Source: Macrostomum lignano (lineage: Eukaryota). Taken from it: a stretch of 64,000 bases of DNA. The position numbers and the translations under genes were made by a program. Each line of letters starts with the position of its first letter. The first letter of the stretch is position 1. The notes under the pieces were generated by a model, which was not told the origin of the DNA, did not search any database, and saw only the letters and a list, made by a program, of their open reading frames with translations. The stretch is from assembly GCA_002269645.1 (NCBI GenBank), contig NIVC01000598.1, forward strand, positions 656,286 to 720,285, read 5' to 3'. Of this stretch, positions 43,952-48,109 are shown one piece after another.

Positions 43952-46168
43952 TGATGTAACCGCCCTTGTCGCCTGTCCGCTCCGTAGAGAGACGAACGCA
44001 TGGCTAGAGGGGGCAATGACCGTAGGCTGCCTATGACCGGGCAATGACCTGACGGACCTCCAGCACCAGACTGTCCCGCCCACATGATTAGTAGCTTTGG
44101 TAGCGCTTCGTGACCAGAGGGCCAAGGACCCACATGGACCCCACCTGTAGCCAAGGTGCAATAGTTGGTCACTCGGTCATGGTATGACCGAGTGGCTGCC
44201 ACCACTCTATGTGACCTGGCGCACCTGGATCTTTCTACCAGACCTCTCGAGGCTAGAGCCCCGCCTGGATTGGTTACCAGGGGATTTAGGCTAACAGGGG
44301 AGACGCATGCAGCCGAGTACAGGGACTCTGCTTGGGGCATGATCGGGAACTCTGGGCTCAATCCTGGAGGATTTCTCAGCAGGGGATCCTTTGTGGCTGT
44401 GAGCGAGGCTGGCTTGCGACTTTGATTACTAAGAGTAGTATGAGGCGAACATGTACTGTCTACAGTTTAGATTGCTCAGGGCGAAGGGACGCGTTAGCAT
44501 GGGGTTGCAACCTTCCTACTGCCATTCTGTGCCAAGACTCGCTAATCCCTCTACTAGACGCACACGCGGCCCCGCAGCACGCACTCACAGGCGGGCTTTG
44601 CACGGGGAGAGGCCATTAGCTTACCCAAACTTCCTTATGCTTTGCCACCCCGGGAGAAAGGCTTAGCAAGCCATGAGTGAAATGATGGTGAAAGATTGAA
44701 TAATGATGAAGTTAGTTAATAGTTAATAATTAGGCCCTTAGGCAAATAAGCAGGCAATTAGGCAGCTTCACTATTGAGTAAAATACAGCAAAAGATACGG
44801 TATCACAATTGGCTCAGCTCTCTAATCAGACAATGGAAAATAGGCAAACCCCGGATAAGCAAAGGCAATTAGAGCACAAATTAGTAGCAGGAACTTACCG
44901 GCAGCTGCACAGAGAGAGAGAGAGACGGAGTGACCGAGGGCGGCTGTAGGCTGCAGTCAGGCAGGCGGTGAAGCGGCGATGCGCTGGAGCGACGAGGCGC
45001 TGATGTAGATCAGGCGATGCTGATGATGCTGGGCGGTATCAGACCGCTGGCCGATAGGCGAGCTCACTTGGGGAGCTAAGGATAACTTGGCGGTGACAGA
45101 CCGCGGGCCGGCAGGGATTCGTCTTATAGACGAATGGGTCAGAACTCAATCTGACAGCAAGTCCAAAGAAGGACGAGGAGAGGAACAGAGATAAACTCAG
45201 TTGAGTATTCTCATGCCGAAATCGCTTCCTTTTATAGACCTCACAGCCGCCTCCTCAAGGTCGTTACCATGGCTCCCTCTCTCTGATTGGCTGCCGGCAG
45301 AATGACGTCAGAATGAGTCATGATGAGAAGCATGAGACCGGCATAGCAACATGAGAAATCGGGAAATTGCGCAATCCGGAGGTGGGGTGGGGGATAATTG
45401 GCGCAGCGGGTGGTCGCGAAAGTGTTGCGCAAGCAAACATTGAGAACAATAGGGCTGGGGTCGAGAACAAAGGAATTGGAAATCGGGGATAATTGGGGAA
45501 AACTGAGAACAATGCAAAAGTAAACATTGGAGAAAAGGTGATAATTAGGTGCGAAAACGAGAACAAAAGAAAGAGAAAATCGGAGAAAATGTGATAATTG
45601 GTGGGGGTCGAGAGAACAAAAGAATCAAAAACGAGAACAATAGAAGCGGAGGTGGGGTGGGTGTCGTATGAGAAATTTGGGAAGGAGAACAATAGCGTGA
45701 GAAAAGGTTGCGCAAGAGAGGGGGATGAGTCATCGATGAGTCACCGAGGGGGAGAAGGGGTCACACGACTTGCGTCACCGTTTGGGAGTTTGAGAGGGGA
45801 TGGGGAGACGGTGAGCACACAAAGTACTGTAAGTAGACACAGGGAAAGAGGGGACAGCGCAGGAAAAGAGTGCAGAGGGAGACAAAAAAAGGGAGGAGGT
45901 AGAGAAAATACAGGAAGAATAGGGCGGGAACAGAAGAGATAGGGTCGAGGGGGAGGTACAGAAAGGGGTAGGGGGCTCCGGAAAGGCAGGTGCGGCGGCA
46001 GGAGAGACGGGACCAAGGCAGCAGGAGGGGTGCAGCAGAGCGGGAGTCTCCAGGCCCGGTCGGAGACCTGGCCGAGTCTCGACAGCTCTGTGCGAGGGTG
46101 CACGGGATAGGAGGCACTTTCGAAAAAGTTCCCATGCCCTATCCCGCGACCAGAGCGTGGTTACATCA
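43952..46168 (-). repeat. Complete 3' LTR (2217 bp)
   Basis: Ends TGATGTAACC...GGTTACATCA (10-bp inverted repeat). Its first 885 bp recur at 53014-53898. Confidence 0.85.
45229..45320 (-). promoter_or_regulatory. LTR U3 promoter core (TATA, CCAAT, CRE, AP-1 motifs)
   Basis: Minus-strand TATAAAAG (45236-45229) and CCAATCAG (45290-45283); TGACGTCA (45303-45310); TGAGTCA (45314-45320). Confidence 0.55.
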
Positions 46169-46185
46169 CACCCCCACTGCCTTTT
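46169..46185 (-). other. Polypurine tract (putative)
   Basis: Minus-strand AAAAGGCAGTGGGGGTG directly precedes the 3' LTR start TGATG. Confidence 0.6.
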
Positions 46186-46707
46186 GTGACGGAACTGGTT
46201 CCGTCATCATCACTGCCCAACATGGAACCACACAGACGGGAGCGGGATCTCAACCGAACGTGAAATCACAGAATTAACAAACCGCGAGCGGGAATGGAAA
46301 AAGGCGATAAAATAGAGGGGATAGCAATAAATTCACAAAACGAGATACATAGGTTGAAGTACAATATAGAATTTCAACAATTTCAACTGTTGCTGTGGCT
46401 AAAGTGGGAGGGGGAAAACACAGACAGCGCAATAGTAGGGAGAAAAATAGCGAATTGTCAACAATCAATTATCATAATTGGATAGAAGCGCCGCTGGGAA
46501 AGAGAGGAAACGGGGAAGGGTGAGGGAAGTGGGGAAAAAGAAGGGGGGAAGGGTTGCTAGCACACAGCCAAGGGCAGAGCCTCGGGGAGAATGACAATTA
46601 CACAGGGGAAAAATACTAATGCAGCGCAGTAAATTAATAAGCTAATTTCGCCGGGAGTTCAACCGCACGGAGGCCTAGCGTCCTTGAGGGCTCGGACCCC
46701 GCTTCAG

Positions 46708-46880
46708 CCAGTCAGATGGCTTCGGGGCGATCGGTTGTAGGCTGGGAGGCGCCGCGCCGTGCACTGGCCACTGTATAAGAGGCGCCACTGATGACGGGAG
46801 CCAGCTGCCTGCAACCTACACGGAGTCGCAGTTTCTAACCAAGGCGCCCAGCGCGATCTTTCAAACTATACAACTACTCG
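46708..46880 (+). CDS. Candidate antisense gene inside the LTR element, internal exon
   Basis: Acceptor CCCCGCTTCAG|, open frame, strong donor TCG|GTAAGT at 46881 (phase 1) in frame with 47703. Confidence 0.35.
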
Positions 46881-47702
46881 GTAAGTCCCATCACCAACCT
46901 GATTTCCTTTCGCCTATACGTTAAACGAAATCTACCCACTTGCTATGCCTTTCATATTAAACTGAGCCAACGGTAGTAGTACAATATGTCTTTTCTTACG
47001 GTACTAAGAGTGAGAGGCCAACACAGACTTATTTTTATGAATTTGATTGACGCACAACAAAGACTCGTATATTATTAGTAAAAGGTGGCATATTAGACAA
47101 ACAAGTTTTTATTAGAAAAATAGTGAAATACTATAAAAATAGTGGCACACACACACACACACACCGCCCTCATTCACGTCTTCGAAACCCTCAAAAACTT
47201 AACAGCCGAAAGAGTTTGAAAGAGGAATTAATCATTAATTTGACTGCCACCAGTTTGATGTACTATTATAAAAGAGAAAGGGGAACCGACCACCATCTTG
47301 GCGCATTACTAAAGAAAAGAAAAGGAGGATCAGCCACCCTTTTGAGAGAGGTTGCTAGGGAAAACTGCCACCACTTGTACATTAACAGGGAAGAGAAAGA
47401 GGGAACCCGTCACCAATTAGAGTGGATTGCCCGGGGAAACTGCCACCATTTGCCCTTCTACCAGAGGAGAGGAAGACGAAAAACTGCCATTACTTAGGGG
47501 TGTATTATTAAAAGAAGGCGGGGAAGAAGGCTACCACTACTTGATCACCTAGAGCTCAAGAGAAGGAGAGGGAATGAAGAAAGGAAGAAACCCCCAAGAA
47601 GGCCACTACCACACGCCATAAAGTTAAAATCCCCATCTATCTACATCCTAATACCCGGCTAGTTCCCTACTTCTATTTCATCCTTTAAATTCTCATTTTC
47701 AG

Positions 47703-48109
47703 GATTCCGGCCGCTAGTAGCCGAGCCCATCCTTGAAGAGGAGTCCGACTACGAAGCGCCCGAAGACAGCCATTCAGAGCCGGACGCCCCCTCTGATTCT
47801 GGGCCGGCTGCGCCATCTGGTGACATAGGCGCCGCGGCTCCCGGGCCATGCGACCGCCGAGCCGCCAGCGAACCAGCGTCCGGGGCCGGTTGGCATCCGG
47901 TACCACCGCCGTTGTCAGCCCGAGCGCACGCTCCGCCGCCGGTCGCCGCGGTGACGCCCGTGGCTGCCGCTCCACAGCCCTTGCCAACCCCTGTGGTGGA
48001 GACCGACGGCTCCTGGCATTTGGTCGTGCTGTCGACGGCCCTAATAGCCGGTCTCACAATGCACTGGCTACTGCTCTTGGAGCTATTTCTGCGGCTTCCC
48101 AACTGCTGA
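47703..48109 (+). CDS. Candidate antisense gene inside the LTR element, terminal exon
   Basis: Acceptor TCTCATTTTCAG|GA. Frame is open from the acceptor to TGA at 48109 (~135 codons): acidic, then Pro/Ala-rich, then a hydrophobic C-terminus. Confidence 0.45.

What the first reader, a model, noticed from the sequence alone, without database searches (positions are those of the whole stretch)
45800..48109. Candidate spliced antisense gene occupying the place of pol
Seen on the + strand: exon 46708-46880 (...CRLGGAAPCTGHC...QLL, donor GTAAGT) splices in frame to exon 47703-48109 (GFRPLVAEPILEEESDYEAPEDS...PPPVAAVTP...WHLVVLSTALIAGLTMHWLLLLELFLRLPNC*). Both are GC-rich islands in AT-rich sequence, and the last frame opens right at a polypyrimidine acceptor. 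A phase-compatible mini-exon with ATG exists in the 3' LTR (45800-45810, CG|GTGAGC), though a match has a 1-in-3 chance. Known: antisense ORFs driven from the 3' LTR exist (HTLV-1 HBZ, plant Tat/Retand elements). Inference: a ~200-aa tail-anchored membrane protein, perhaps a regulator, defence factor or egress factor.
Basis: partly seen in the sequence, partly recalled or inferred. Interest (0 to 1): 0.75.

Follow-up and report, generated by a model that had tools for sequence, protein, structure and literature searches.

The report
Flatworm retrotransposon carries reverse-strand membrane gene
A flatworm retrotransposon that lacks its copying enzymes carries, on the opposite strand, a stretch that likely codes for a small membrane-anchored protein, but the proposed splicing that would complete this gene was not seen in RNA data.

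Summary
The window is Macrostomum lignano. The finding lies in a young Ty3/gypsy-type LTR element (minus strand) with gag and protease but no RT, RNase H or integrase.

The proposed three-exon frame is open (197 aa), but the exons differ in support.
- Last exon (47703-48109): well supported. Its acceptor ranks 1 of 309, it has a clear coding signal, its GC edges fit acceptor and stop, and its C-terminal membrane helix differs at 2 of 35 residues from a diverged copy against 19 of 59 elsewhere.
- Exon 46708-46880: best upstream donor, in phase (shuffle P=0.024), but weak acceptor, no coding signal, neutral-looking variants.
- LTR mini-exon: unsupported; three tandem AGs accept any phase.

Neither junction appeared in contigs of three probable RNA runs, where unspliced RNA dominates. 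One run branches exactly at the last acceptor, partner unseen.

Best reading: an antisense accessory gene for a likely tail-anchored protein, 5' end unresolved; a trans-spliced leader AUG is an alternative start. Function is inferred (membrane adaptor with a DYEAP motif). No homologs outside this species. New variant of known antisense extra ORFs; interest 0.5.

The parts
43952..46168 (-). 3' LTR, 2217 bp, ends TGATGTAA...TTACATCA, set in a (TCTA)n array
44893..44898 (-). Sense-strand donor in the LTR (CCG|GTAAGT), likely start of an intron that removes the leader before gag
   Evidence: rank 2 among minus-strand donors; inferred
45800..45810 (+).
   Evidence: present; donor rank 6 of 354; no junction listed; phase match uninformative
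46169..46185 (-). Polypurine-tract-like stretch next to the 3' LTR
46708..46880 (+). Candidate antisense exon 2 (alternative acceptors before 46712 and 46716); moderate support, from its donor only
   Evidence: same join in one database gene model P0009; not seen
46881..47702 (+). Candidate intron, 822 bp, 41% GC; sister subfamilies diverge at 47003-47200
47703..48109 (+). Antisense last exon: acidic patch with DYEAP, Pro/Ala linker, C-terminal hydrophobic helix, stop
48291..48296 (+). ATTAAA, possible poly(A) signal of the antisense RNA (untested)
48697..49236 (-). Aspartic protease ORF, ends in a stop; no RT follows
   Evidence: (gag-asp_proteas E=0.021, below cut-off)
49215..49221 (-). GGGAAAC slippery heptamer with hairpins behind it: predicted -1 frameshift gag to protease
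   Evidence: X XXY YYZ rule recalled
49200..50644 (-). gag, split over two frames near 49.9-50.0 kb in this copy
   Evidence: PNMA E=0.04; Retrotrans_gag clusters 0.91-0.92; contigs across the split show one gap each
50673..50700 (-). Strong sense acceptor just upstream of the gag ATG
   Evidence: rank 3 of 348
52992..53010 (-). Primer-binding site (tRNA-Leu assignment recalled, not tested)
53014..53898 (-). 5' LTR remnant (U5 end only), 99.9% identical to the 3' LTR
53895..54617 (+). Inverted copy of the LTR U5 end, joined to the (TCTA)n array

Best explanation
A young retrotransposon of the flatworm Macrostomum lignano has gag and protease but no copying enzymes, and carries on its opposite strand a last exon that likely encodes a small protein predicted to be anchored in a membrane by its C-terminal helix. 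SHOWN: element anatomy; absence of RT, RNase H and integrase; open frame, strong acceptor and coding signal of 47703-48109; helix conserved in a diverged copy; RNA covering the region. INFERRED: the element moves with enzymes of a helper family sharing its LTR; a minor antisense RNA starts in or near the 3' LTR, is spliced into 47703, most likely from the donor at 46880 (about 0.45), and gets its start codon from an LTR exon (about 0.15), from the trans-spliced leader AUG at 46712 (about 0.15; in frame, 192 aa), or from an unseen exon. Being antisense, its introns survive copying of the sense RNA. The product would be a tail-anchored protein with a disordered cytosolic part. Committed mechanism (about 0.2 given a protein): a membrane adaptor whose acidic DYEAP tyrosine and PxxP stretches would recruit host SH2/SH3 actin regulators and so aid transport or cell exit of Gag particles.
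For: Acceptor 47703 rank 1 of 309. Exon 3 coding signal: best of 6 frames, 0-1 of 300 shuffles; +20 to +29 bits for this strand, 0.15-0.21 bits per codon, like gag, protease and host controls at 0.12-0.34. Against diverged copy P0003: 2 of 35 differences (both conservative) in helix plus tail, 19 of 59 in the other in-frame blocks, Fisher p=0.004; EEESDYEAPE identical, same C-terminal end. A diverged contig has 21 substitutions and 0 gaps over 160 nt of exon 3 (X8 record 31). In run X8 a contig begins exactly at 47702, the one base shared by intron end and a G-ending partner, and depth goes from 25 to 48; DNA-like run X17 has no break there; chance about 0.7% from 10 listed RNA contig starts in 4.4 kb (my arithmetic, which shows 32 of 2983 records). 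Single-sequence AlphaFold gives one helix, residues 103-134, pLDDT 84-98. Donor 46881 best upstream and in phase, P=0.024; gene model P0009 makes the same join. DYESP/DYEPP are Vav/Nck and Tec SH2 sites in SLP-76 (PMC2803302, passages).
Against: No 46880>47703 or 45810>46708 joint among the 14 joints listed for 4 runs; contigs of X1 and X8 cross the donor unbroken and those of X1 and X2 cross the acceptor unbroken, with exon and intron depth equal in X1 (73 vs 70) and X2 (31). Contigs drop rare forms, so this shows unspliced RNA dominates, not absence. In X8 the donor is unbroken, so the branch at 47702 is probably not from exon 2, and the higher depth continues into gag. Exon 2: about 1 bit orientation signal, 3 synonymous and 7 non-synonymous of 10 variants as expected for neutrality, weak acceptor. 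At least 5 of 10 database models change frame inside exon 3 (P0002, P0003, P0004, P0005, P0007), from assembly error or decay; X8 record 30 has 4 gaps and X17 record 10 has 2 at unlisted places that could include exon 3. The helix-only coding score is significant under the host model only. P0009 is a chimeric 1204-aa prediction, not transcript proof. The selection test rests on one protein pair without DNA. The motif was noticed after the fact.
Confidence: 0.55

Rival explanations
1. Exon 3 is a real antisense exon but its partner is not 46708-46880: it is joined to a sequence outside this copy (the upstream exon in most database models, or another subfamily's segment), and exon 2 is non-coding.
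For: 6 of 10 models join an 80-codon 'RSD' exon to this acceptor and a 7th carries it with a variant join; 1 of 10 uses exon 2. X8 branches at the acceptor but not at the exon 2 donor; subfamilies diverge at 47003-47200 with 218-255+ nt of foreign sequence.
Against: The RSD exon scores -15 to -20 bits for its annotated strand, so it looks like the shadow of an opposite-strand gene picked by a gene finder; it has no match above background in the window. A leader joined directly at 47703 gives only a 5-residue peptide.
Confidence: 0.2
2. The GC-rich stretch is a captured or relic piece of coding DNA carried passively in the 3' UTR of the gag-protease RNA; it is not expressed as protein now.
For: Unspliced RNA dominates in 3 studies; frame changes in at least 5 of 10 models; linker differences (13 of 36) are near the 26% expected for neutral drift at 13% DNA divergence.
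Against: No host parent gene among the hits (all are M. lignano models of this element type); helix far more conserved than linker (p=0.004); no gap in the diverged contig; acceptor still the strongest on its strand.
Confidence: 0.15
3. Chance ORF: a GC-rich island is often stop-free, and antisense RNA, if any, acts as non-coding silencing RNA (micropia-like).
For: Long open frames are common in GC-rich parts of this window; donor-like 6-mers occur on both strands; no homolog elsewhere.
Against: Coding signal 0-1 of 300 shuffles that keep dinucleotide content; acceptor rank 1; helix pLDDT 84-98; region-specific conservation.
Confidence: 0.1

Closest known systems
Antisense additional ORFs between pol and 3' LTR (aORF-3R: maize Grande gene23, rice RIRE2, Retand TRP28, fungal Boty; PMC7264820, PMC11963269)
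   Same: Ty3/gypsy-type host element, 3' internal position, antisense orientation, no homologs outside the elements, function unknown; some Retand elements are non-autonomous.
   Different: Animal host; element lacks RT, RNase H and integrase; candidate gene needs splicing; product has a C-terminal membrane helix, whereas described ones are nuclear or DNA-binding; no TRP28 match.
TR-GAG non-autonomous LTR retrotransposons (PMC8704663)
   Same: LTRs plus gag, no RT or integrase, transcribed, presumed to move in trans.
   Different: Animal; keeps a protease behind a predicted -1 frameshift; about 9 kb internal-plus-LTR span; carries an antisense cargo.
sORF2/FAST-like proteins of MDG1-group elements (bioRxiv 10.1101/2025.03.14.642691)
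   Same: Small single-helix membrane protein in an env-less LTR element; possible link to actin and spread.
   Different: All 105 sORF2 candidates are sense and have a central helix, MGxxxS/T and a polybasic patch behind the helix; here antisense, helix at the C-terminus, no polybasic tail.
HTLV-1 HBZ / HIV-1 ASP antisense genes
   Same: Antisense to gag, driven from the 3' LTR (HBZ per PMC7264820 and PMC11963269; HBZ splicing and ASP membrane location recalled).
   Different: Retroviral, overlap env/pX genes; no sequence relation found; antisense promoter not shown here.

Membership tests
Ty3/gypsy-type LTR retrotransposon | LTRs with TG...CA, PBS and PPT | tested here: met
   5' LTR is truncated in this copy
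Ty3/gypsy-type LTR retrotransposon | Retrotransposon Gag and aspartic protease | tested here: met
   Atlas Retrotrans_gag/Ty3_capsid clusters 0.91-0.92; Pfam PNMA E=0.04 and gag-asp_proteas E=0.021, both below cut-off
Ty3/gypsy-type LTR retrotransposon | RT, RNase H, integrase in gypsy order (needed for clade assignment) | tested here: not met
   0 families in 9 read-through frames; clade (Mag, CsRN1, Gmr1) therefore unassigned; one search found no longer polyprotein
Non-autonomous gag-bearing element (TR-GAG-like) | gag present, RT and integrase absent, multi-copy and recently inserted | tested here: met
   LTRs 99.9%; several variants; contiguous contigs from protease stop into the cargo
Non-autonomous gag-bearing element (TR-GAG-like) | Autonomous helper with shared LTR | tested here: inconclusive
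Antisense additional ORF (aORF-3R) | Antisense coding region between the coding block and the 3' LTR | tested here: met
Antisense additional ORF (aORF-3R) | Present and conserved in most copies | tested here: inconclusive
   exon 3 depth similar to gag in X17 (61-72 vs 74-98); helix conserved in P0003; frame changes in at least 5 of 10 models
Antisense additional ORF (aORF-3R) | Own antisense transcript | not testable with these tools
   contigs carry no strand
sORF2/FAST-like fusogen | Sense orientation relative to gag | tested here: not met
   criterion
sORF2/FAST-like fusogen | Short N-terminal ectodomain, central helix, polybasic cytoplasmic tail | tested here: not met
   helix spans the last 32 of 135 exon 3 residues; 1 basic residue behind the hydrophobic core
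sORF2/FAST-like fusogen | MGxxxS/T myristoylation motif | tested here: inconclusive
Tail-anchored membrane protein | Single hydrophobic helix within about 30 residues of the C-terminus, no N-terminal signal peptide | tested here: met
   hydropathy scan, model; holds for the exon 2 plus exon 3 reading; definition recalled
Tail-anchored membrane protein | Actual membrane insertion with cytosolic N-terminus | not testable with these tools
   needs experiment

The most novel reading that the evidence does not exclude
An animal LTR retrotransposon has replaced pol with an intron-containing antisense gene that borrows the host's trans-spliced leader AUG (or an LTR exon) as its start and makes a tail-anchored phosphotyrosine adaptor that recruits actin machinery to move Gag particles between cells: an env- and FAST-independent spread factor carried by a non-autonomous element.
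Probability: 0.08. Interest if true: 0.85.

Novelty: new variant of a known kind. Interest (0 to 1): 0.5.

Why it matters
Antisense extra genes of LTR retrotransposons are described mainly in plants and fungi, and their function is an open question. A spliced, membrane-protein version in an animal with transgenesis and RNAi would make that question testable. RT-seeded surveys of this genome (PMC12801592) cannot see such pol-less elements. It would also suggest that a non-autonomous element contributes a function instead of only parasitising its helper.

Tried and rejected
No genome is held for this window, so no copy alignment or dN/dS could be made. Cluster look-up could not be made. Run search listed no holder on record as RNA; 14 of 20 holders are guessed RNA. 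The 3 guessed-RNA runs laid have no cover at 50604-53010 where X17 has 74-127; they stop at different places (50068, about 50300, 50546), so this is only a weak hint that they are RNA and that the leader is spliced out or lost by 3' bias. No remote homolog: Pfam 0; Atlas no usable hit, recognition 1495; HMMER on 1.84 billion representatives 5 hits, all earlier M. lignano models; metagenomes 1 low-complexity hit, 45% over Pro/Ala residues 53-101, dismissed without further reading; Gag not in viral contigs or PDB; protease found no longer relative. Homology of the RSD exon to exon 2: 23.4 against background 23.2-24.1, rejected. Exon 3 as an inverted copy of gag: no DNA match. Leader joined at 46708, 46716 or 47703 gives 11-, 21- and 5-residue peptides, rejected as starts. 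Exon 2 fold: mean pLDDT 46.8, uninformative, so no fold search was run. Earlier scan findings: nothing in 5 look-ups. Literature searches listed no description of this element or of a tail-anchored antisense ORF; Mlig001352 is absent from the 5 supplements of PMC12801592. The 2020 classification paper of M. lignano LTR elements was not listed and not read.
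Full report
Setting. Exon 3 matched 10 proteins in two searches, all M. lignano gene models. The finding lies in a minus-strand LTR element. It has a 2217-bp 3' LTR (43952-46168), a PPT-like tract, a PBS (52992-53010) and a 5' LTR reduced to 885 bp that is 99.9% identical, followed by an inverted LTR end, all inside a (TCTA)n array. Gag is recognised by the Atlas and weakly by Pfam, the protease weakly. 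A GGGAAAC heptamer at 49221 predicts a -1 frameshift into the protease. The protease ends in a stop and 9 read-through frames of the remaining internal DNA hit no Pfam family. Contigs run unbroken from gag through the protease stop into the cargo, so the pol-less form is shared by other copies. Gag is split in this copy; contigs over that interval show one gap each, so other copies are probably continuous (inference).

Observation. The pieces differ in quality.

Exon 3. Its acceptor ranks 1 of 309. Its strand score per codon equals that of gag, protease and host controls. GC change points bracket acceptor and stop. The product is disordered except for one helix, residues 103-134, pLDDT 84-98, from a single sequence. 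Against the diverged model P0003, leaving out its frame-shifted middle block (41 of 135 residues), helix plus tail differ at 2 of 35 positions and the rest at 19 of 59 (p=0.004). A diverged contig has 21 substitutions and no gap in 160 nt. Against this, at least 5 of 10 models change frame inside exon 3. Most come from UniRef records without an assembly name; PMC5730564 notes lower base accuracy of the older assembly, but decay is not excluded. Two contigs over exon 3 and its 3' flank have 2 and 4 gaps at unlisted places.

Exon 2. Its donor is the best of 148 upstream and in phase; 24 of 1000 shuffles match it (recalled weights). Its acceptor ranks 69 of 309, it has no coding signal, and its 10 listed variants split 3 synonymous to 7 non-synonymous with no stop. 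Variant density is higher than in the flank (10 of 173 against 8 of 567, p=0.003). One model, P0009, makes the same join, inside a chimeric 1204-aa prediction.

Start. Exon 2 has no in-frame ATG, and three tandem AGs accept any phase, so the LTR mini-exon match carries no weight. In this species 30% of genes receive a 35-nt leader ending in ATG (PMC8629364, passages). That ATG is in frame only at 46712, where P0009 also reads M-S-E-G-F-G. That site lacks the [T/C]TNCAG motif of trans-acceptors, while 46708 and 47703 have it but are out of frame.

RNA. I laid 4 of 24 listed runs (3 guessed RNA from 3 studies, 1 probably DNA). None of the 14 listed joints is a proposed junction. RNA contigs cross donor and acceptor unspliced, with flat depth in X1 and X2. 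This RNA most likely is the sense gag-protease message, for which there is a strong LTR donor (44898) and a strong acceptor before the gag ATG (50673); strand cannot be read. In X8 one contig ends at 47731 and the next starts at 47702, the pattern expected if a G-ending partner joins at 47703; depth goes from 25 to 48, and X17 has no such break. From 10 listed RNA contig starts in 4.4 kb the chance is about 0.7%, but only 32 of 2983 records are shown, 2 of 3 RNA runs lack the break, and the exon 2 donor is unbroken in X8. The partner is unseen.

Database models. Six of 10 join an 80-codon 'RSD' exon to the same acceptor, a seventh with a variant join. That exon is absent from the window and scores -15 to -20 bits for its strand, so it is probably a gene-finder artefact over an opposite-strand ORF. 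The models show that the acceptor is attractive, not that it is used.

Mechanism. Shown: anatomy, coding character of exon 3, relative conservation of the helix, transcription of the region on an unknown strand. Inferred: mobilisation by a helper sharing the LTR (LTR depth 4000-11600 against 30-180 internal); a minor antisense spliced RNA whose introns survive copying because only the sense RNA is copied; a tail-anchored product. Its conserved EEESDYEAPE resembles the DYESP/DYEPP SH2-docking sites of SLP-76 (PMC2803302, passages) and lies before PxxP-rich sequence. I therefore favour a membrane adaptor that links host actin regulators to particle transport or exit (about 0.2 given a protein). 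Alternatives are exclusion of related elements or a host-manipulating addiction factor; neither has evidence.

Comparison. Antisense extra ORFs near the 3' LTR are known in plants and fungi, with nuclear or DNA-binding products and unknown function (PMC7264820, parts 1-2 of 3 read; PMC11963269, passages). TR-GAG elements lack most of pol and transpose (PMC8704663, passages). sORF2/FAST proteins are sense with a central helix (bioRxiv 2025.03.14.642691, passages); membership fails. The M. lignano survey seeds on RT and, in parts 1-2 of 6 and supplement 1, does not mention such elements (PMC12801592); its other supplements were only searched for one name. PMC8220671 (passages) only cites the plant work. 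Searches listed nothing closer.

Verdict. Observation partly confirmed. New variant of a known kind, interest 0.5.

Noticed in passing
window 53014-54617: The 5' LTR lacks its promoter half and is followed by an inverted LTR end that joins the (TCTA)n array with its own junction; likely two head-to-head insertions in one microsatellite with a deletion, or an aberrant integration. This copy could not start its own sense RNA.
   Followed up: partly
window 43270-43951 and 54618-56000: The element sits in a long (TCTA)n array; possible microsatellite targeting by the helper integrase.
   Followed up: no
window 46493-48181 (minus strand): The strongest minus-strand donor (48181) and a top-ranked acceptor (46493) bracket the whole antisense cassette, so sense splicing could cut it out; no such joint was listed.
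   Followed up: partly
window 46141-47643: This copy differs by about 2.3% from the majority contigs here but about 0.2% over 47614-50122: a recombinant between subfamilies. A sister subfamily leaves at 47003 with at least 218-255 nt of other sequence.
   Followed up: partly
window 46708-46880: Variant density in exon 2 is four times that of its upstream flank (10 of 173 against 8 of 567), mostly amino-acid changing; relaxed or diversifying selection not distinguished.
   Followed up: partly
P0001-P0008 N-terminal 'RSD' segment: Its opposite strand reads as an acidic, stop-free stretch of about 80 codons; an unidentified multi-copy ORF linked to this element family in at least 7 gene models.
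   Followed up: partly
window 50650-53010: A 2.4-kb leader without known ORFs, absent from 3 guessed-RNA runs and flanked by a strong acceptor at 50673: probable intron of a spliced gag-protease message.
   Followed up: partly
window 57144-60454 (minus strand): Host protocadherin-like gene (6 cadherin repeats, then a repeat, membrane helix and tail); used as coding-model training set.
   Followed up: no
window 15389-19000: Tandem array of about 124 copies of a 29-bp unit.
   Followed up: no
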